Below are positions 55,005-64,000 of a stretch of 64,000 nucleotides of DNA, piece after piece. Origin of the DNA: Candidatus Undinarchaeota archaeon (GTDB lineage: Archaea; Undinarchaeota; Undinarchaeia; Undinarchaeales; UBA543); contig CAZMMZ010000002.1 in the NCBI GenBank assembly GCA_964567575.1, positions 1 to 64,000 on the forward strand, read 5' to 3'. A program made the position numbers and the translations under genes. Within the stretch, counting starts at the first letter, position 1; the number at the start of each line of letters is the position of its first letter. The notes beneath the pieces are model-generated. The model made no database searches. It had not been told where the DNA came from and worked only from the letters and a program-made list of their open reading frames with translations.

Positions 55005-55376
55005 CTACTCATTCAATATTGTTCTTTCAAGTGGTAGTAATACCACAAAACCAAGGAAGTCGCCTTTGGATACGTTTCCATCTATAATAGATGTGAATCG
55101 AGCGTATTCTATCTTCCGGTCCATGTCTAATGGTTTTGGTTCTGTTTCACTTACTCCAGATACATTTCCATTTTTGTTCATCCTATATAGGGATGTAAAA
55201 ACCATATGGTTTGCAGGGATGTGTATGTTTTTCACTTTTATGGATTGGCATATCCCTTTCTTAATGATATGATCTTCATCTGCTATTAGATGTTCGACCT
55301 TGCCATGGTCTTGTTTAATACCCACAGCTTGTCTTTTACTTTTAAAATCCTGCCAAAATTTATCAATTGTTGTCAT
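55005..55376 (-). CDS. DUF22 family protein
   Basis: LIADED..IKKG....IKVK.I.IP.N, G.V.KGD.LG pattern; overlaps the atpD stop. Confidence 0.7.
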   Translation of the reverse strand: MTTIDKFWQDFKSKRQAVGIKQDHGKVEHLIADEDHIIKKGICQSIKVKNIHIPANHMVFTSLYRMNKNGNVSGVSETEPKPLDMDRKIEYARFTSIIDGNVSKGDFLGFVVLLPLERTILNE

Positions 55377-56028
55377 TTAATGATACCTCTTTTTTCTTTG
55401 CCAATTTTCCCTTGATTTTCTTTAATCGTGAAAAGTCTTCTCGTTCCATTTCATCTAAACGCATTCTAATGAATTTGCTAGTATTTTTCATTCGCGGAAT
55501 CACAATATATTCAAGAGCATTAACACGGCGTTTTGTTTTTTCAACTTCACTTGCAAGAAGTTCAATTGTTTTTTCAATTTCTGCCATTTGCACAACTAAC
55601 TTGAGTGCGTTTTCAAATTTGCCAGCTGCTTCATCCAAACTAGCTGAAGTTGTTATTGGGCTGTATCCTCGGTTTGAAAGATTTCTATCTTCTTCATCTA
55701 ATTTGATTTCCGGAACCTTAATCCCAATAATGTTTCTTGTTTGGAATTCAGCATTTGCAATTTCACGAACAGCCATTGCTGCGCTTGTAACTTCCATTGG
55801 TCCCATTATTGATTTTGCTTTAACAAGATCGCCGTAAGCATTTTTGAAATATTTTTCAGCATCATCACGGAGCGTAGCACCTTTTTTAATAATATCAAGA
55901 AATTTCATGATAAGCGCATCTCGCTTTTCTTTCAGAAGCTTGTATCCTTTCTCCGCTAGCTTCGTCTTTTTCTTGAGCTGTATCAGCTCCATTCTTGTCG
56001 GGTTTATCCCCGCAATGAGGTCTGCCAT
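55363..56028 (-). CDS. atpD: A-type ATP synthase subunit D
   Basis: PTRMEL..LK...GYKLLKEKRDAL, TKRRVNALEY..IP. Confidence 0.96.
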   Translation of the reverse strand: MADLIAGINPTRMELIQLKKKTKLAEKGYKLLKEKRDALIMKFLDIIKKGATLRDDAEKYFKNAYGDLVKAKSIMGPMEVTSAAMAVREIANAEFQTRNIIGIKVPEIKLDEEDRNLSNRGYSPITTSASLDEAAGKFENALKLVVQMAEIEKTIELLASEVEKTKRRVNALEYIVIPRMKNTSKFIRMRLDEMEREDFSRLKKIKGKLAKKKEVSLNDNN

Positions 56029-56036
56029 TTATTATT

Positions 56037-57419
56037 TTACTCCGGTTTCAAATATTTCTCAATGTGTTCTGGTTTGAGACGTTTCAATTCTTCTCTTGGT
56101 AAGATGTTAAACATGTCCCAACACAAGTCGAGTGTTTGTTCAATTGTCCTGTTCTCATCTTTACCTTGAGTAACGAATCTCTTTTCAAACTCTTGAGCGA
56201 ATTTCAAGAAAGATTTATCACGTTCTGAAAGTGCTTCTTCTCCAATAACAGCAACAAGATCCTGCAAACTTCTTCCTTCTGCATATGCAGAATAAGCCTG
56301 GTTTGAAACACTAGAATGATCCTCTCTTGTTTTGCCTGGTCCAATACCCTTGTTCATCAAACGAGACAAACAAGGAAGTACATCAACAGGTGGGAATACG
56401 CCTTTCTTATGCAATTCTCTTGAAAGAACAATCTGTCCCTCTGTAATGTATCCAGTTAAATCAGGAATTGGGTGTGTTATATCATCCTGAGGCATGGAAA
56501 GAATTGGGAGCTGAGTGATTGAACCTTTTTGTCCCTCAATTTTTCCAGCACGTTCATACAAACATGCCAAATCAGTGTACATGTATCCTGGATAACCACG
56601 TCTTCCTGGAACTTCTTCCCGAGCTGCTGAAATTTCACGAAGAGCTTCACAATAGTTTGTCATGTCAGTTAGAATAACAAGAACATGCATTCCTTTTTCA
56701 AACGCAAGATACTCAGCTGCTGTAAGTGCCGCTCTTGGAGTAATAATACGTTCAATTGTTGGATCGTTTGCCAAGTTGACAAACATAACTACATTTTCAA
56801 GAGCTCCTGATTTCTCAAAATCCTCTTTGAAAAATGCTGCTTCTTCGAAAGTAATTCCCATAGCTGCGAAAATAACAGCGAAGTTTTCCTTTGATCCAAG
56901 AACTTTTGCTTGTCGCGCAATCTGAGCAGCAAGCTCGTTGTGCGGCAAACCAGATCCTGAGAAAATAGGAAGTTTCTGTCCTCGAACCAATGTGTTCATT
57001 CCATCAATTGTTGAAACACCAGTTTGAATGAAATCCTCTGGGTATTCTCGAGATGTTGGATTAATTGGCGCACCGTTAATGTCAATGAATTTCTCAGCAA
57101 CAAGTTTTGGGCCATTGTCTAGTGGTTCTCCTCGAGAGTTGAACACACGACCAAGCATGTCTTCAGCTACTGGGAGCATAACTCCTTTTCCAGTGAATCG
57201 AGTGCTTGTTTTGTCAGTGTCAAGACTTCGTGTTCCTTCAAAAACCTGAACAATTGCAGTTGAACCTGCAACTTCAAGAACCTGTCCAAAACGCTTTTCC
57301 TTTTCAGGTGATTTAATTTCAACAAGTTCATTGTAAGTTACTCCTTCAACGCCTTCAACAACAATTAAAGGTCCACTAACTTCTTTTACTGTAGTATATT
57401 CTTTGTTTTTGTCTGTCAT
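56037..57419 (-). CDS. atpB: A-type ATP synthase subunit B
   Basis: [41 protein letters not shown]. Confidence 0.98.
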
Positions 57420-59191
57420 TATTCTTGCACCCCCGTTACAATTTTTTCACGCGTCATCAAGTTGTTAATACCTTCTTCAAACTTGTGTTTGATGTCTCTG
57501 ATTTTTGCGCTAACTTTTGATTCTTCAAGATATTTAACAGCTGCAATAGCTTCAATAACAGGGATTTTTGAAATACCTGTATTAGCAATTCCTGCTTCTA
57601 CTGCTTCCTGTGCTTTATGATGTTTCCAAAGAATAAGTTCAAGTAAATCAAATTGTTTCTTTGGTGAAGTGTAGGTATCAACCTCATCATACGCATTTTG
57701 CTGCAAGAAATCCTCTCTCAAGGATCTTGCGGTTTCAAGAAGAAGTTTGTCTTTTTCTGGTAATGCATCTGGTCCAACCAGTCTGACAATTTCTTGAAGT
57801 TCAGCTTCTCTTTGCAAAATAGTCATTGCTTCTGTTTTTGCTTCGAGCCAGTTTCCAACTTCTTTATTCCACCAGCTAGCTACATTGTCATTATACAAGG
57901 AATATGATGTAAGCCAGTTGATACTTGGGAAGTGACGTTTGTTTGCAAGATCTGCATCAAGCGCCCAGAAAACTTTACAAATACGTAGTGTATTTTGTGT
58001 AACTGGTTCTGAGAAATCCCCTCCAGGAGGACTGACAGCTCCAATAACAGAAACTGAGCCTTTCTTTTCTTCTGTACCAAGTGTTTGAACAACACCAGCA
58101 CGTTCATAGAATTGAGCAATTCTTGGTGCGAGGTAGGCTGGATAACCTTCCTCACCAGGCATCTCTTCAAGACGTGAACTGATTTCTCTCATAGCTTCTG
58201 CCCAACGGGATGTTGAGTCAGCCATGAGCGCAACATTGTAACCCATGTCTCGGTAATACTCAGCAATTGTAATACCTGTGTAAATTGAAGCTTCACGAGC
58301 TGCTACAGGCATGTTTGAAGTGTTTGCAATAAGTACAGTTCTTTCAAGAAGTGCTTTTCCAGTTCTTGGATCTTTCAAGTGTGGGAATTCTTTTAATACA
58401 TCAGTCATTTCATTTCCACGCTCACCACATCCAATGTAGATAATAATATCTGCATCAGACCACTTTGCAAGTTGTTGCTGCATGACAGTTTTTCCAGCAC
58501 CGAAAGGTCCTGGGATTGAACTTGCTCCGCCTTTAGCAACTGGGAAGAAAGTGTCAACAATTCTTTGTCCAGTAATCAATGGGATTGTTGGTTTGAATTT
58601 TTCAGTATATGGTCTTGGAATACGAACTGGCCATTTCTGTGCCATCTGAACTGCTTTTCCACCAATCTCAGCAATAGTTGTATGAACTGTGTATTTTCCT
58701 TCGCTAACAATTGAAGTAATTTCTCCTTTCATTTTTGGAGGTACCATAACTTTGTGTTCAACAACTTCAGATTCTTTGACAATACCAAGAACGTCTCCAC
58801 CAACTACTTTTGCACCTTTCTTAGCTACTGGTTTAAAATCCCAAGTCTTTTTTGTATCAAGAGTTGGAACGTCAATACCACGTGTGATGAAAGTACCAGC
58901 TTTCTTTTTGATATTCTCTAAAGGTCTGGCTATCCCATCATAGGTAGTTCCCATTAAACCTGGTCCAAGTTCGACAGAGAGAGGCATGCCTGTGTTTTCT
59001 ACAGGTTGCCCTGGTCCGATTCCTGCAGTCTCCTCATAAACCTGAATTGTGGCTGTGTCACCATTGAGCTGAATGACCTCTCCTAGAAGGCCTTCTTCTC
59101 CGACTTTGACAACGTCGTACATCTTAGAACCTTTCATGTTGTCTGCAACAATGACTGGTCCCGCTATTCGTGTAATCTTTCCTTTTATCAC
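57419..59191 (-). CDS. atpA: A-type ATP synthase subunit A
   Basis: [29 protein letters not shown]; GTG start 59191 after GGAGG; no intein. Confidence 0.98.
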
Positions 59192-59192
59192 T

Positions 59193-59522
59193 TTACTGTT
59201 CCTCCGTTTTCTTTGAAGTAATATCAATGCCAACCGCCTTGCGTATCATTTCTTGGATTTCTTTTTTTGCATGTCCTGTAGTGCCTGTTTTATCAGGGAC
59301 TTCTATCACCACTGGGTGCGGTTTGCTTCTGAGTTTTCGAATCTGTTCATCTGCATAACTTGCATGATTCTCTGAAATTATAATAATGTCATATTCTTTC
59401 TGAAGTAGTTCTTCCAAAACTTGAGGAGTATCATTGATTTTATCAACACGAGCAACTGCTGTAACTCCAGCAAGTCTGAAACCAGTTGTCATATCTTTAT
59501 CGCCTATCACACAAATGTTCAT
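59193..59522 (-). CDS. atpF: A-type ATP synthase subunit F
   Basis: [18 protein letters not shown]...IRKAVGIDI. Confidence 0.95.
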
Positions 59523-60673
59523 GCTGAAACACCTCCAGTTTCTGGATCTATTTTATTGGTACTGAAATTTGCAGCAATTCTGATTTTCTTTGCATCTCTT
59601 TCTTTTCCTGTAATCATATTCAAAGCAGGTCCAATTCCTAATCCATATTTTATTGATAATTGTTTGACAGTTTTCTCATAATATTCATCAATTGCTTTTT
59701 CTATTTGATAAAGAGATCCTGTTTCTTTGAAGCTTGTTGAAACTTCTGATAAAACGTCTGAGTAAGGTGTTCCCTCAAGTTGTGATAAAATTTCGTCGAC
59801 TGTTTCTGCTTTTGCAATTGCTTTAAGTTTTTCTTGTGTAAATCCATAAGAAGCATCAATAAGGAAGTTGTCTATGTTGTCAATTTTTCCTCCACTGCTT
59901 CTAAGTCTGAGCATTGTTTTCAAATTGAGAATATCTATTTTTGTTCCAAACATAATTGTTACTGCAACCATGTTCTTGTCTTTTGAAATTGCTATTTTTT
60001 TATGAGCTTTTTCATAAACATATTTGTCAATTGCCATTTCTAAAGGAATTAAATTCTTTTGTTCCTGAACTTTTGGCATAGCTGCGGATACGATTTTTCC
60101 ATACTCTGTTGTTTCTAATTCAGAAGTTGCTTCTTCAATTGTTTTTGATTCAACTAATGTTTTCAAAACATGTTCTTTTAATGTTCCAATTTGATGTATT
60201 AATTCAGCACGTTTTTCTATTGGAGTTCCATTTTGTATGGATCTGAATACCATTTTTATATTTTTAGCATCGTAAATCTTCAGAAGATCTTTTATTACAT
60301 CCTTCATTTCTCCTGGTACAGTTCTTGTAACTTTTCCATAAATTTCAGCGGTGTGTTGATTAAGTGCTTTTTCAAGATCTTCTTCTGAATTTGGATTTTC
60401 CATCTTTGTTAAATAAGGACCATAATCTGTGTTTTCAAGAGTGCTAATGCAATCGATTTGTGTTTTGCTATTTTTTAATTCTTCAATTTTTTGTTTTTTT
60501 AGAAGGCCAGCTTCCATTGCACGTATTTTTGCATTTGTATACATGTATGGAGCAAGGTCTACAATATTCATAATAACTGGAAGTATTAGCACTAAGAATC
60601 CTGCAACAGCTATAGCGACAATGATTGCCACAACCGGTGCGGATAAGACTAATGTCTCCAGTGAAAAGTTCAT
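59519..60673 (-). CDS. atpC: A-type ATP synthase subunit C (with N-terminal TM)
   Basis: YMYTNAKIRAMEA.LL, L..TDYG.Y, D..N.K; operon position. Confidence 0.9.
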   Translation of the reverse strand: MNFSLETLVLSAPVVAIIVAIAVAGFLVLILPVIMNIVDLAPYMYTNAKIRAMEAGLLKKQKIEELKNSKTQIDCISTLENTDYGPYLTKMENPNSEEDLEKALNQHTAEIYGKVTRTVPGEMKDVIKDLLKIYDAKNIKMVFRSIQNGTPIEKRAELIHQIGTLKEHVLKTLVESKTIEEATSELETTEYGKIVSAAMPKVQEQKNLIPLEMAIDKYVYEKAHKKIAISKDKNMVAVTIMFGTKIDILNLKTMLRLRSSGGKIDNIDNFLIDASYGFTQEKLKAIAKAETVDEILSQLEGTPYSDVLSEVSTSFKETGSLYQIEKAIDEYYEKTVKQLSIKYGLGIGPALNMITGKERDAKKIRIAANFSTNKIDPETGGVSA

Positions 60674-61260
60674 TATTTATTTTTGAACAGAATTGCTGCT
60701 ACGTCCCCCCTTATTTTTTCAGAATCTCTTTCCATGATTCTCTCAATACTATTATCAATTTTCAAATTTCCATCTGCACTTTCAATTATAACTCCGCCTG
60801 CAATTTCTACTGTTTTCCCAAGTTTTGATTTAAGTTCTTGTGCTAATTCTTTTCCATACGCTTCATTTTCTTGATTAAAACATAGTTTGCTGTTTTCTCC
60901 TATTGCATCTATACCTTCTTTTGCTAGAATTTTTAGCGCGGTTTTATATCTGCCTGTTCCTTGTTTTGCCATTCTATCCAATTGTGTTTCAGCTTTTTCA
61001 ATTGCTGAAGTTATTGTATTGTCTCTGCTTCTGAGGTGAATGTTGTGTGCTTCAAGATTTGTTGAAGAAAGTATTCTTTGCTGTTCTCGGTCTGCATTCT
61101 TTTTTCCAGTTTCTTTTATTACAGATTTTTCAGCATTGATTTTTTCTTTTTCAGTTTTTCTAAGCTCAGTTGTTTTCTCTTTTGCATCGCTAATAATTTT
61201 ATTAGCTTCTGTTATTGCTTCTTTCATTATTTTCTGATTAATTTTTGTTATTCCTTCCAT
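60673..61260 (-). CDS. atpE: A-type ATP synthase subunit E
   Basis: MEGITKI..KI..EA coiled coil, IAGGVII...G.L.IDNS; GAGGTGA RBS before ATG 61260. Confidence 0.92.
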   Translation of the reverse strand: MEGITKINQKIMKEAITEANKIISDAKEKTTELRKTEKEKINAEKSVIKETGKKNADREQQRILSSTNLEAHNIHLRSRDNTITSAIEKAETQLDRMAKQGTGRYKTALKILAKEGIDAIGENSKLCFNQENEAYGKELAQELKSKLGKTVEIAGGVIIESADGNLKIDNSIERIMERDSEKIRGDVAAILFKNK

Positions 61261-61270
61261 TTTATTCACC

Positions 61271-62731
61271 TCAACCGAATAGGCCAACTCCTAACATGAT
61301 TAATATTGCTATAAGCAAACCAAAGATAGCATATGTTTCTGGAATAACTGAAAGCACAAGGCCTTTTCCAGTTGCTTCTTTGTTTTTCACTGTTGCTCCA
61401 ATTGCTCCACCAGCAACTATTCCTTGTCCAATAGCTGATAATCCAGCAAATCCTACTGCACATCCTGCTGCTATTGATGCTAATCCTGCTACGCTTGTTA
61501 GTGATCCTGCTTTTCCAGCTCCAACAAGACCTACTGCTGCAAGTACGAGAATTGCGACAATGAATCCGTAAAGTGCTTGTGTTTCTGGGAGTACAGAGAA
61601 AACCATACTCTTACCAAACACTTCAGGCTTTTCAGAAACTGCTCCAACACCTGCTGCTGCTGCGATTCCTTGTCCAATAGCTGATAGTCCTGCTACTCCG
61701 ACTGCGATACCTGCACCAACACCTGCTAGTCCAATTGTTTCTGTTATTCCTTGACCACCACCTGATCCAAGTATTCCTGCACCAAGTAATATTAAAATAG
61801 CAATAAGCATTCCGTAAATTGCTTGTGTTTCTGGTAGTACTGAGAAAACCATTCCTTTTCCCATCATCTTATCGTCTTCAGCAACTGTACTAACTGCAGC
61901 TCCAGCTGCAATTCCTTGTCCAATAGCTGATAATCCTGCTACACCAACTGCAAGACCTGCTCCAACAGCTGCTATTCCTGCACCCATTTTTAATGATCCT
62001 ACAATTGTTCCTCCAATCATTCCTGTTGAAACAAGAATTAGGATTGCGACAATGAATCCGTAAAGTGCCTGTGTTTCTGGAAGTACTGAGAAAACCATTC
62101 CTTTTCCAAACATGTCTTCTTTTTCAGAAACTGCTCCAATAGCTGAACTTGCTGCGATTCCCTGTCCAAGACCTGAAAGTCCTGCTACACCAACTGCGAT
62201 TCCAGCACCAAGTGCTGCGAGTCCAATTGGTAATGGGAGTTTTGCAGATGTTGTTCCAATAATTCCTGCACCAAGTAAAATTAAAACAGAAATAAGCATT
62301 CCATAAATTGCTTGTGTTTCTGGTAATACTGAGAAAACCATTCCTTTTCCCATCATCTTATCATTTTCAGCAACTGCGCCGATTGCAGATCCAGAAGTTA
62401 TTCCTTGTCCAATAGCTGAAAGTCCTGCGAAACCAACAGCAATACCTGCTCCAAGACATGCAATTGCAGTACCGATTGAAATATCGGCTGTGGCAGTTCC
62501 TACAATTCCTGTGCCCATTAAAATAAGTATAGCAATAAGGAAGCCGTAAATTCCCTGAGTTTGTGGAAGCGCTTGGAAAATAAGTGCTGTTGAGAATTTT
62601 TCTGGATCTTCTGTAATAGCTCCAGCTCCAGCAGCTCCTGCGATACCTGCTCCAATTCCACTAGCTAGTCCTGCTACTCCGACTGCAATTCCAGCTCCTA
62701 TTGCAGCAATTGCAATTTCTGCAGTTGCCAT
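61271..62731 (-). CDS. atpK: A-type ATP synthase proteolipid (subunit K/c) with six fused hairpins
   Basis: 486 aa, six ~81-aa repeats; PQTQ (Q57), PETQ (E138, E219, E301, E383), PETY (E465). Confidence 0.95.
   Translation of the reverse strand: MATAEIAIAAIGAGIAVGVAGLASGIGAGIAGAAGAGAITEDPEKFSTALIFQALPQTQGIYGFLIAILILMGTGIVGTATADISIGTAIACLGAGIAVGFAGLSAIGQGITSGSAIGAVAENDKMMGKGMVFSVLPETQAIYGMLISVLILLGAGIIGTTSAKLPLPIGLAALGAGIAVGVAGLSGLGQGIAASSAIGAVSEKEDMFGKGMVFSVLPETQALYGFIVAILILVSTGMIGGTIVGSLKMGAGIAAVGAGLAVGVAGLSAIGQGIAAGAAVSTVAEDDKMMGKGMVFSVLPETQAIYGMLIAILILLGAGILGSGGGQGITETIGLAGVGAGIAVGVAGLSAIGQGIAAAAGVGAVSEKPEVFGKSMVFSVLPETQALYGFIVAILVLAAVGLVGAGKAGSLTSVAGLASIAAGCAVGFAGLSAIGQGIVAGGAIGATVKNKEATGKGLVLSVIPETYAIFGLLIAILIMLGVGLFG
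61560..62380 (-). repeat. Internal DNA repeats of atpK hairpins 2-5
   Basis: TGTGTTTCTGG-n-AGTACTGAGAAAACCATTCCTTTTCC-like block recurs near 61580, 61825, 62070 and 62313; hairpin 2 resembles 4 and hairpin 3 resembles 5. Confidence 0.85.
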
Positions 62732-62784: not shown

Positions 62785-64000
62785 TTATTTTTCCTCTATT
62801 GTAGTATAATCTCGACTTACTGAAAACGGTGAATATTTTCTTCCACCGCCACTGTAGAATTTACTAAAGAATTCTACATATTGTAAACGAAGTCCGTGAA
62901 CAAAAGCACCGAGTGCATTCATAGCAAAACTGAATGCATGACCTACTGAAAATATGATTATTGCAAGAAGTATTCCAAGGAATGGAACTCCTGAGACCAT
63001 TCCTGCAAGTAAATTCATTGTCATTGCAATACCACCTGTTGCAAGACATAAAGCAAGAAGACGTGTGAAAGACATAACATCTCCAAAGAATCCTGTTACA
63101 TCGAATAATCCTATAACTCCTTTAAATCTGATAAGTATTACTAATGAAAGTCCTGCAAGTACGTATGCTACATATTTGAGTCCACCTGCTAATTCTATTC
63201 CTAGCATTGGACCAAGAAGAATGAATGCTGCAGCTTGTAGGGAGAACCAAATTATCTGTCCGTGTAACATTTCAAGTTTCTTTCCCTGTTTCCAATTATT
63301 AATTGCTCCAAGAATAAGTCCAAGATTCAAATGAGCAATTCCAACAAATAATGAAACTTTTAGAATAACAAGTGGGTTTGTTAATGGATCAACCCATGGG
63401 GCAAGGTTTGCAGGTTCTAATCCCCAAATATATTTTGGAAGATCTCCCAGATAACTTCCTGTAAGAACCCCAAAGAACATTGTTGAAAGACCAACTGCAG
63501 AAACAATTGTTCCAACTTCTTTCATACTTGCATTGTGTTTTCCAAGTTTTACTAGTAGGAAAGCCCCTCCTATAAATAAAAGAAGTCCATAAACAAAATC
63601 AGTAAGCATCAACCCTGCGTAAAGAATCAAAAGTGGTGTTATAAGTGTTGTTGGATCAATTTCATTATATTTTGGAAGAGAATACATCTCTGTCATCATT
63701 TCGAATGGCTTTGCAATCCATTTATTTTTCAAAAGTACTGGCACATCATCGTCTTCAGTTGGTTCTTCTATTTTTATATGGCAACAATTATGTGAGGATT
63801 TTTGAATAGATTCTGTGATTTTTTTTGCATCTTTTTTTGGAACCCATCCATGCATTATGAATGTTTTTTTAGTTCCTGCCATTTTTCCCAGAGCATCTAT
63901 TCGTTCTTTCTCAATAACAAGTTGTTCTCGTATTGTGCTAAGATTTAAACTCCATTTAGTGTTGAGTTTTTTCAGTTTCTCTTTTTTATTTTTAATATCC
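62785..64000 (-). CDS. atpI: A-type ATP synthase subunit I (5' end outside window)
   Basis: PFEMMTEMYSLPKYNEIDPT, SFTRLLAL, LRLQYVEFFSKFY.GGG; frame is open to the window edge. Confidence 0.96.
   Translation of the reverse strand, partial: DIKNKKEKLKKLNTKWSLNLSTIREQLVIEKERIDALGKMAGTKKTFIMHGWVPKKDAKKITESIQKSSHNCCHIKIEEPTEDDDVPVLLKNKWIAKPFEMMTEMYSLPKYNEIDPTTLITPLLILYAGLMLTDFVYGLLLFIGGAFLLVKLGKHNASMKEVGTIVSAVGLSTMFFGVLTGSYLGDLPKYIWGLEPANLAPWVDPLTNPLVILKVSLFVGIAHLNLGLILGAINNWKQGKKLEMLHGQIIWFSLQAAAFILLGPMLGIELAGGLKYVAYVLAGLSLVILIRFKGVIGLFDVTGFFGDVMSFTRLLALCLATGGIAMTMNLLAGMVSGVPFLGILLAIIIFSVGHAFSFAMNALGAFVHGLRLQYVEFFSKFYSGGGRKYSPFSVSRDYTTIEEK

What the first reader, a model, noticed from the sequence alone, without database searches (positions are those of the whole stretch)
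61271..62731. Six-hairpin ATP synthase c subunit with five Na+-type ion-binding sites
One 486-aa ORF holds six hairpins. Hairpin 1 (PQTQGIYG, no Glu) and hairpin 6 (GQG...PETY) resemble the two halves of a V-type/NtpK-like duplicated proteolipid with one site. Hairpins 2-5 are chimeric GQG...PETQ-x-x-Y units, each apparently carrying a full Q/E/T/Q/Y Na+ signature (E138, E219, E301, E383). Protein and DNA similarity (2~4, 3~5) indicates duplication of a two-hairpin block. Site density would rise from 1/2 to 5/6 per hairpin, and ring size would be limited to multiples of six hairpins (2 copies = 10 ions, 3 copies = 15 ions per turn). That could allow ATP synthesis at low ion-motive force. I know of 1-, 2-, 3- and 13-hairpin archaeal forms but not this arrangement.
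Basis: partly seen in the sequence, partly recalled or inferred. Interest (0 to 1): 0.85.

Follow-up and report, generated by a model that had tools for sequence, protein, structure and literature searches.

The report
Six-hairpin archaeal ATP synthase rotor subunit
This gene of a tiny DPANN (Undinarchaeota) archaeon really does encode the ATP synthase rotor subunit as six fused hairpins with five sodium-type ion sites. The same design is common in database sequences of methanogens and other archaea, though I found no paper describing it, and relatives suggest that two copies form a 12-hairpin, 10-ion ring.

Summary
Window 61271-62731 (minus strand) is one intact 486-aa ORF with six PF00137 hairpins, lying between subunits I and E of a complete A-type ATP synthase operon. 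Hairpin 1 lacks the Glu (Q57) and the helix-1 Gln (A28). Five Glu follow (E138, E219, E301, E383, E465). Every Na+ ligand of Enterococcus hirae NtpK is present at each of the five intramolecular interfaces.

Mis-assembly is unlikely. The longest exact internal repeat is 36 nt, three species of the genus share the architecture, and dN/dS is 0.07.

It is not unique. About 90 of the 120 best database hits have the same q-E-E-E-E-E pattern, including cultured Methanomicrobiales. The papers I could search still list only 1, 2, 3 or 13 hairpins. This scan has met the design before on other DNA.

A hairpin tree shows first and last hairpins are ancient and middle hairpins expanded separately in each lineage. 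In Undinarchaeales the series is F-ab-L, F-abab-L and F-(ab)5-L (4, 6 and 12 hairpins). All very long relatives have 12, 13 or 15 hairpins, and three are exact 2x6 fusions. A K2 ring (12 hairpins, 10 ions, 3.3 per ATP) is therefore most likely. That does not support the proposed adaptation to low driving force.

The parts
61271..62731 (-). atpK/ahaK: 486-aa six-hairpin rotor (c/K) subunit, stop codon included
   Evidence: ORF. PF00137 x6. NCBIfam NF004913 V-type ATP synthase subunit K, 515 bits. AlphaFold2 mean pLDDT 91.4, pTM 0.91, 12 TM helices.
62498..62719 (-). Hairpin 1 (residues 5-78): site-less. A28 replaces the helix-1 Gln and Q57 replaces the Glu. It keeps L55, T58, Q59 and Y62, which complete the site of hairpin 2.
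   Evidence: Alignment to NtpK 2BL2. P56, Q57, T58, Q59 and Y62 are invariant in 32 six-hairpin homologues.
62255..62476 (-). Hairpin 2 (86-159), type a: Q109, E138, T139, Q140, Y143
62012..62230 (-). Hairpin 3 (168-240), type b: Q190, E219, T220, Q221, Y224
61766..61987 (-). Hairpin 4 (249-322), type a, paralogue of hairpin 2: Q272, E301, T302, Q303, Y306
61520..61741 (-). Hairpin 5 (331-404), type b, paralogue of hairpin 3: Q354, E383, T384, Q385, Y388
61274..61495 (-). Hairpin 6 (413-486): Q436 and E465 form the fifth site. Y467 and F470 replace Q and Y, so it offers no ligands to the next subunit's hairpin 1.
   Evidence: (NtpK hairpin 2 has ETY at the same place)
62785..64000 (-). Subunit I (stator a), cut by the window end. 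It is 653 aa in full on the contig, with a 105-aa H-like ORF upstream.
   Evidence: PF01496; L061 ORFs
55363..61287 (-). Rest of the operon: E (60673-61287), C (59519-60673), F (59193-59522), A (57419-59233), B (56037-57419), D (55363-56028)
   Evidence: Pfam PF01991, PF01992, PF01990, PF00006 with A- and B-type domains, PF01813

Best explanation
This is the only rotor (c/K) subunit gene found in the A-type ATP synthase of an Undinarchaeota (DPANN) archaeon. It is made as one roughly 47-kDa polypeptide of 12 transmembrane helices (six hairpins).

Shown by sequence: each ion site is built as in E. hirae NtpK. The outer helix of hairpin k-1 gives a backbone Leu, Thr, Gln and the stabilising Tyr. 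Hairpin k gives the helix-1 Gln and the outer-helix Glu. Five such sites lie inside the polypeptide, at interfaces 1/2, 2/3, 3/4, 4/5 and 5/6. The interface between hairpin 6 of one subunit and hairpin 1 of the next lacks the Glu (Q57), the Gln (A28) and the Gln/Tyr donors (Y467, F470), so it is blank.

Inferred: the sites bind Na+. Two copies close a 12-hairpin ring with 10 sites and two blanks 180 degrees apart, giving 10 ions per turn and 3.3 per ATP.

The gene arose from a Methanocaldococcus jannaschii-like first-middle-last ancestor. Its route was a four-hairpin F-a-b-L form, followed by tandem duplication of a two-hairpin block.

My confidence by layer: real six-hairpin gene with five carboxylate sites 0.95; Na+ as coupling ion 0.7; K2 ring 0.6.
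For: Gene and domains.

Ligand mapping: NtpK L61/T64/Q65/Y68/Q110/E139 align to L55/T58/Q59/Y62/Q109/E138, and the same residues recur in every repeat. All are invariant in 32 six-hairpin proteins from distant lineages. The pattern meets the sequence rule for Na+ specificity given in bioRxiv 10.64898/2026.10.01.756066.

Structure: confident model, best PDB match NtpK 2BL2 with target TM-score 0.90 and rmsd 1.2 A.

Not an artefact: longest exact internal repeat 36 nt and blocks 79% identical. G012 and G013 of the same genus, and the named records UBA543 (91% identity) and an Undinarchaeota MAG (88%), have six hairpins at 486-487 aa. dN/dS is 0.07 overall and 0.04-0.12 per hairpin at dS of about 1.

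Origin: hairpin tree and a/b typing.

Ring size: all 37 relatives longer than 851 aa have 12, 13 or 15 hairpins. P0249, P0250 and P0260 are exact head-to-tail fusions of two six-hairpin units. A member of the same order (G006) has one 978-aa ORF, F-(ab)5-L, in the same operon position.
Against: No experiment: ion specificity, ring stoichiometry and whether the polypeptide stays intact are all inferred.

Two-hairpin members of the same family form rings of 20 hairpins (E. hirae K10, stated in PMC2359735), so hairpin number per ring is not fixed across A/V-type enzymes and 18 (K3) is geometrically plausible.

Five-, seven-, eight- and nine-hairpin relatives exist and do not divide into 12, although at least one five-hairpin form may be an assembly collapse.

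The 2x6 fusions are from a different lineage (N-terminally extended, Thermoplasmatota-like).

The sample of homologues is biased, because it comes from best-scoring lists in three length bins.

A Na+-type motif does not exclude H+ use in vivo.
Confidence: 0.6

Rival explanations
1. The gene and sites are the same, but three (or four) copies form an 18- (or 24-) hairpin ring with 15 (or 20) sites, giving 5 (or 6.7) ions per ATP. This is a high-ratio gear that allows ATP synthesis at very low ion-motive force.
For: Two-hairpin K subunits of the same family assemble into 20-hairpin rings (E. hirae K10, PMC2359735), so rings near 18-24 hairpins are compatible with A/V-type stalks. DPANN archaea live on little energy. 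No respiratory pump was found in the genome.
Against: No relative encodes more than 15 hairpins in one chain. The covalent forms stop at 12 and 13 in this clade, and three of them are exact 2x6 fusions. Every ring inferred here carries 9-13 sites (E. hirae K10 has 10; the covalent 12- and 13-hairpin forms have 9-13). Fifteen would lie outside that range.
Confidence: 0.2
2. The rotor couples H+ rather than Na+ in vivo, despite the Na+-type ligand set.
For: The sequence motif is only predictive. The genome carries four Na+/H+ exchanger-family genes, so either gradient could be interconverted.
Against: All six NtpK site residues are present at all five sites and invariant in 32 homologues. The motif meets the published Na+ criterion. 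The genome's membrane pyrophosphatase matches NCBIfam models named sodium-translocating, although that name is applied generically.
Confidence: 0.25
3. The enzyme works mainly in reverse, as an ATP-driven ion pump that energises the membrane of a fermentative or host-dependent cell. On this view the hairpin arrangement has no bearing on ATP synthesis thresholds.
For: No Rnf and no Mrp/complex-I antiporter-like subunits were found in the 82%-complete, 0.75-Mb genome. The lifestyle is DPANN.
Against: A membrane pyrophosphatase that could build a gradient is present. The genome is incomplete. Archaeal A-type enzymes with V-like c subunits do synthesise ATP (PMC9171764).
Confidence: 0.4
4. The six-hairpin ORF is a repeat mis-assembly, or the protein is cleaved into smaller units.
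For: Short-read assemblies can collapse such repeats. Five-hairpin P0030 equals six-hairpin P0013 minus exactly one 82-aa unit, with 404 of 404 other residues identical. In G003 the gene is broken across two contig ends.
Against: In this gene the repeats are only 79-84% identical, with at most 36 nt of exact repeat. The identical protein is recorded on six contigs. Two further species of the genus (G012, G013), and the named records UBA543 and an Undinarchaeota MAG, also give six hairpins. All hairpins are under strong purifying selection. I saw no processing motif in the 7-13-residue linkers.
Confidence: 0.03

Closest known systems
Methanocaldococcus jannaschii AtpK (P0171, 220 aa), the published 'triplicated' K subunit
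   Same: Same building plan. The first hairpin lacks the Glu and the helix-1 Gln (A/QTQY), the middle hairpin is Q/ETQY, and the last hairpin is Q/ET[F/Y]F, so there are n-1 sites. Its first and last hairpins fall in the same clades as those of the window protein. The best NCBIfam model for the window protein (NF004913, a 220-position profile, the length of three-hairpin K subunits such as M. jannaschii's) scores 515 bits.
   Different: Three hairpins and two sites, against six and five. The window protein has four middle hairpins of two alternating types.
Enterococcus hirae NtpK (PDB 2BL2), Na+ V-type rotor, K10 ring
   Same: Best sequence and structure match in the PDB (E 2e-19, 38% identity, target TM-score 0.90). 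All Na+ ligands are conserved. Hairpins 1+2 align to the whole of NtpK.
   Different: NtpK has two hairpins and one site. Here the site-bearing unit is repeated five times in one chain.
Six-hairpin subunit K of Methanomicrobiales (Methanofollis fontis P0071, Methanocalculus taiwanensis P0084, Methanolinea mesophila P0102, Methanomicrobium sp. W14 P0060). These are database entries only; I found no paper.
   Same: Identical architecture and site pattern (x/QTQY, 4 x Q/ETQY, Q/ETFF), 479-484 aa, 52-57% identity.
   Different: Their middle hairpins form a separate clade, which indicates an independent expansion or homogenisation. They show no a/b alternation. The last hairpin is ETF rather than ETY.
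Methanopyrus kandleri AtpK (1021 aa, 13 hairpins, proposed monomeric rotor; Lolkema and Boekema 2003, as cited in PMC2359735). Close Methanopyrus sequences are P0268 and P0269.
   Same: Many hairpins fused in one chain, with Na+-type ligands in the repeats.
   Different: All 13 hairpins carry a site and one chain is thought to close the ring. Here there are six hairpins, one blank, and more than one chain is needed.
Acetobacterium woodii c1 in the F/V hybrid c-ring (PDB 4BEM)
   Same: A ring that contains hairpins without a carboxylate yet still works as a Na+ ATP synthase (PMC9171764).
   Different: F-type enzyme, a separate gene for the blank unit, and a hetero-oligomeric ring.

Membership tests
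A/V-type ATP synthase rotor subunit K/c (Pfam PF00137) | One or more two-helix proteolipid hairpins matching PF00137 above the gathering score | tested here: met
   Six matches, 316.9 bits against a cut-off of 24. Each covers about 1-60 of 60 profile positions.
A/V-type ATP synthase rotor subunit K/c (Pfam PF00137) | Encoded between subunits I and E in an A-type operon (H-I-K-E-C-F-A-B-D) | tested here: met
A/V-type ATP synthase rotor subunit K/c (Pfam PF00137) | Ion-carrying carboxylate in the middle of the outer helix | tested here: met
   Glu is present in hairpins 2-6 and Gln in hairpin 1.
NtpK-type Na+ binding site | Ligand set equivalent to NtpK L61 (backbone), T64, Q65, Q110 and E139, plus Y68 | tested here: met
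   Direct alignment for site 1. The same residues occur in repeats 2-6 and are invariant in 32 homologues.
NtpK-type Na+ binding site | Measured Na+ binding or transport | not testable with these tools
   Needs DCCD protection or 22Na+ assays.
M. jannaschii-type multi-hairpin K (site-less first hairpin, n-1 sites) | First hairpin without Glu and without helix-1 Gln; all later hairpins with Gln and Glu; last hairpin without the Gln/Tyr donors | tested here: met
   Pattern A/QTQY, 4 x Q/ETQY, Q/ETYF, against A/QTQY, Q/ETQY, Q/ETFF in P0171.
M. jannaschii-type multi-hairpin K (site-less first hairpin, n-1 sites) | First and last hairpins orthologous to those of the three-hairpin form | tested here: met
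   The 26 site-less first hairpins (every first hairpin except that of the probably truncated P0121) form one clade with SH-aLRT 99, and all 27 last hairpins form one clade with 98. The alignment has only 74 columns, so the finer branching is weak.
M. jannaschii-type multi-hairpin K (site-less first hairpin, n-1 sites) | Three hairpins (the published form) | tested here: not met
   Six hairpins.
Monomeric single-chain rotor (M. kandleri type) | One chain with enough hairpins (12-13) to close a ring | tested here: not met
   Six hairpins. Relatives with 12 and 13 hairpins exist.
Eukaryote-like V-type proteolipid (one site per two hairpins) | Half of the hairpins lack the carboxylate | tested here: not met
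   Five of six hairpins keep the carboxylate.

The most novel reading that the evidence does not exclude
In Undinarchaeales, and convergently in Methanomicrobiales and Thermoplasmatota, the rotor is a fixed 12-hairpin ring assembled from 3x4, 2x6 or 1x12 hairpin polypeptides. Each polypeptide contributes exactly one blank seam. The degree of gene fusion would then set the number of working sites (9, 10 or 11 of 12), and so the ion cost of ATP (3.0, 3.3 or 3.7). This would be a genetically hard-wired gear series that evolves by duplication of a two-hairpin block.
Probability: 0.4. Interest if true: 0.7.

Novelty: new variant of a known kind. Interest (0 to 1): 0.5.

Why it matters
The number of ion sites per rotor turn sets the ion cost of ATP, and with it the lowest membrane potential at which a cell can make ATP. 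In most organisms that number depends on how many separate c subunits assemble, and it can only be found by solving the ring.

Here much of the stoichiometry is written in the gene: six hairpins, five sites and one blank per chain. Relatives with 4, 6 and 12 hairpins, together with natural 2x6 fusions, give a concrete and testable prediction of a 12-hairpin ring with 10 sites. Cultured methanogens such as Methanofollis, Methanocalculus and Methanolinea carry the same architecture, so the prediction can be tested biochemically.

The reviews I could read list only 1-, 2-, 3- and 13-hairpin archaeal forms, so the common six-hairpin class seems to be missing from the literature.

Tried and rejected
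1. Mis-assembly is rejected. The longest exact internal repeat is 36 nt, the paralogous blocks are 79% identical, independent assemblies agree, and dN/dS is 0.07.

2. 'Unique arrangement' is rejected.

3. A three-hairpin close relative, P0121 (244 aa, 92% identical), looked like a possible split form. It aligns exactly to residues 243-486, that is hairpins 4-6, and is probably a truncated gene call.

4. Five-hairpin relatives looked like evidence against a 12-hairpin ring. P0030 turned out to be P0013 minus one exact repeat unit, so its value as evidence is doubtful. G005/P0035 (5 hairpins, F-a-a-b-L) remains unexplained.

5. Literature. Eight full-text searches and three papers read found no description of six-hairpin K subunits. 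Subscription-journal reviews, for example Mayer and Mueller 2014 and Grueber et al. 2014 (recalled from memory, not checked here), are not in the library, so absence from print is not proven.

6. Ring curvature could not be measured from the AlphaFold model, because coordinates are not returned. Foldseek only confirmed the NtpK-like fold of each two-hairpin block.

7. No multimer prediction tool was available.

Full report
**What is there**

Window 61271-62731 holds one 486-aa ORF on the minus strand. A G-rich ribosome-binding stretch lies a few bases upstream of the ATG.

Pfam PF00137 (ATP synthase subunit C) matches six times, each nearly full length. A scan of the whole 745-kb genome finds these six matches, all in this one frame, and no other c gene. 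That genome has 18 contigs and is 82% complete.

The neighbours are I, E, C, F, A, B and D of an A-type ATP synthase. Beyond the window end the contig holds the rest of I (653 aa) and an H-like ORF.

The closest named records are 'archaeon UBA543' (91% identity) and a Candidatus Undinarchaeota MAG (88%). The host is therefore a DPANN archaeon of the Undinarchaeota.

**The sites**

The outer-helix motifs read PQTQ, then PETQ four times, then PETY. The inner-helix motif is GAG in hairpin 1 and GQG in hairpins 2-6.

The best PDB relative is E. hirae NtpK (2BL2). Its alignment maps the Na+ ligands as follows:

| NtpK residue | Window protein residue |
|---|---|
| L61 | L55 |
| T64 | T58 |
| Q65 | Q59 |
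| Y68 | Y62 |
| Q110 | Q109 |
| E139 | E138 |

The NtpK residue numbers follow from the printed alignment. Their role as ligands is from Murata et al. 2005, as summarised in PMC2359735.

Each site is thus built from the outer helix of hairpin k-1 (Leu, Thr, Gln, Tyr) together with the Gln and Glu of hairpin k. The repeats reproduce this set at interfaces 1/2, 2/3, 3/4, 4/5 and 5/6.

The interface from hairpin 6 to the next subunit's hairpin 1 has Y467 and F470, A28 and Q57, so it has no site. This explains why hairpin 6 can afford to lose Gln and Tyr.

All these residues are invariant in 32 six-hairpin homologues that share only 51-91% overall identity with the window protein. The pattern satisfies the Na+ rule stated in bioRxiv 10.64898/2026.10.01.756066.

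An AlphaFold2 model is confident, with pLDDT 91 and pTM 0.91, and shows 12 transmembrane helices. Its best PDB match is NtpK, with target TM-score 0.90 and rmsd 1.2 A. No PDB chain in the Foldseek list carries more than a duplicated proteolipid (four or five helices).

**Is it real?**

- The paralogous two-hairpin blocks are 79% identical in DNA, and the longest exact internal repeat is 36 nt. Short reads can resolve this.
- The identical protein is recorded on six contigs.
- Two further species of the genus, and the named records UBA543 and an Undinarchaeota MAG, also give six hairpins.
- Against the two named orthologues dN/dS is 0.07 at dS of about 1, and every hairpin scores 0.04-0.12.

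The six-hairpin state therefore predates these species and is maintained by selection.

**Is it new?**

Not as a sequence. Of the 120 best hits between 267 and 851 aa, about 90 have exactly the pattern x/QTQY, 4 x Q/ETQY, Q/ET[F/Y]F. They include proteins named 'V-type ATP synthase subunit K' from Methanofollis fontis, Methanocalculus taiwanensis, Methanolinea mesophila and Methanomicrobium sp. W14. They also include a large Thermoplasmatota group carrying an N-terminal PKD extension.

M. jannaschii AtpK (P0171) is the three-hairpin member of the same plan.

In print I found only '1, 2, 3, or even 13 hairpins' (PMC9171764). PMC2359735 and the 2026 preprint give similar lists. Eight full-text searches found no six-hairpin description.

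This scan has already reported the same class on other DNA. Examples are e1-1378560, e1-4565640 and e1-970895 for PKD-fused six-hairpin forms, and e1-1146668 for a 2x6 single chain. I reached the patterns below independently, before reading those notes.

**How it arose**

I built a tree of 131 single hairpins. It has 74 columns, so only the deep splits are trustworthy.

- The 26 site-less first hairpins, from 2-, 3-, 4-, 5- and 6-hairpin proteins, form one clade (support 99). The only first hairpin outside it is that of P0121, which is really a middle hairpin of a probably truncated gene call.
- All last hairpins form another clade (98).
- Middle hairpins group by lineage: Undinarchaeota-like (96), Methanomicrobiales (93), and separate Thermoplasmatota groups.

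Six hairpins were therefore reached separately in several lineages, or the middles were homogenised within each lineage.

In the Undinarchaeota group the middles come in two alternating types, a and b. Relatives read F-ab-L (4 hairpins), F-abab-L (6) and F-(ab)5-L (12).

**Ring size**

A scan of 17 Undinarchaeota species genomes gave:

- single-hairpin c genes in most families;
- six hairpins in this genus;
- five hairpins in G005;
- one complete 978-aa, 12-hairpin ORF in G006, with 11 Glu, in the same operon position;
- a gene of at least 11 hairpins in G003, broken over two contig ends.

Among proteins longer than 851 aa, all 37 hits have 12, 13 or 15 hairpins. The 15-hairpin forms are a distant group; one is labelled Promethearchaeota.

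P0249, P0250 and P0260 are exact head-to-tail fusions of two six-hairpin units.

Among complete-looking proteins with a site-less first hairpin, the counts in this biased sample are:

| Hairpins per protein | Proteins |
|---|---|
| 2 | 4 |
| 3 | 66 |
| 4 | 5 |
| 5 | 5 |
| 6 | 90 |
| 7 | 3 |
| 8 | 2 |
| 9 | 1 |
| 12 | 14 |
| 13 | 11 |

I infer that the ring of this clade holds 12 (or 13) hairpins, and that the six-hairpin subunit forms a dimer with 10 sites.

Caveats:

- Two-hairpin NtpK forms a 20-hairpin ring.
- The 5-, 7-, 8- and 9-hairpin forms do not fit, although one five-hairpin form is a six-hairpin protein minus one exact unit and may be an assembly collapse.
- The fusions come from another lineage.

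With K2 the enzyme would move 10 ions per turn, or 3.3 per ATP. That equals the ion count of the E. hirae K10 ring, which has one site per subunit. It is lower than the 12-13 ions of the 12-hairpin ring I infer for single-hairpin relatives, or of the 13-hairpin Methanopyrus ring.

The arrangement raises site density relative to a V-type proteolipid. It does not by itself indicate adaptation to a low driving force; that would need K3 or larger.

The direction of work in vivo is open. I found no Rnf or Mrp/complex-I-type subunits. The genome does hold a membrane pyrophosphatase matching NCBIfam 'sodium-translocating pyrophosphatase' and four Na+/H+ exchanger-family genes.

**Verdict**

This is a real, conserved six-hairpin, five-site K subunit. 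It belongs to a widespread class that appears not to be described in papers, and it extends the M. jannaschii plan.

Noticed in passing
L057:2056-4992 (-) = G006:C2, protein P0245: A member of the same order encodes the rotor as one complete 978-aa ORF of 12 hairpins, F-(ab)5-L, with 11 Glu and one blank first hairpin. It sits between I and E. It is probably a whole ring in one chain. Its longest exact internal repeat is 71 nt.
   Followed up: partly
L059:2-1624 (-) and L060:1938-2873 (+) (G003): A multi-hairpin K gene is split over two contig ends, with 4 N-terminal and 7 C-terminal hairpins. The assembly broke inside the repeats, so the true number is at least 11.
   Followed up: partly
P0013 (486 aa) vs P0030 (404 aa): The five-hairpin protein equals the six-hairpin one minus exactly one 82-aa unit, joined at the repeated GKGMVFSVL motif, and 404 of 404 other residues are identical. 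This is either real unequal crossing-over in a population or a repeat collapse in assembly.
   Followed up: partly
P0249, P0250, P0260 (1118-1124 aa): Exact head-to-tail fusions of two six-hairpin units (q-EEEEE-q-EEEEE) behind an N-terminal extension of about 140 aa. Other 12- and 13-hairpin chains carry one to four blank hairpins in various positions, for example q-EEEE-q-EEE-q-EEE.
   Followed up: partly
P0274-P0277 (1108-1147 aa): A distant group (one member is labelled Promethearchaeota) with 15 fused hairpins. All carry Glu in an I/EALY context, that is without the Na+-type ligands.
   Followed up: no
P0002 (723 aa), P0020-P0022 (561 aa): Nine-hairpin (q-EEEEE-q-EE) and seven-hairpin (q-EEE-q-EE) chains look complete at both ends but do not divide into 12 or 13. 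They share the T/QTQY and ETH features of the 12-hairpin P0247 (6+3+3), so they may be collapsed assemblies of such a gene.
   Followed up: no
G000:C3:60358-62286 (-), locus L062:341-2323 (-): The same genome encodes a 660-aa membrane-bound pyrophosphatase. Its best match is NCBIfam NF001960, 'sodium-translocating pyrophosphatase', at 943 bits against a cut-off of 546. It could be a source of a Na+ gradient in a genome with no Rnf or Mrp-type pump detected.
   Followed up: partly
window 55005-55376 (-): A 123-aa DUF22 (PF01629) protein is encoded directly downstream of subunit D, overlapping its stop, as if it were part of the ATP synthase operon.
   Followed up: no
P0121 (244 aa, 92% identical): A database protein corresponds exactly to hairpins 4-6 (residues 243-486) of the six-hairpin form.
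   Followed up: partly
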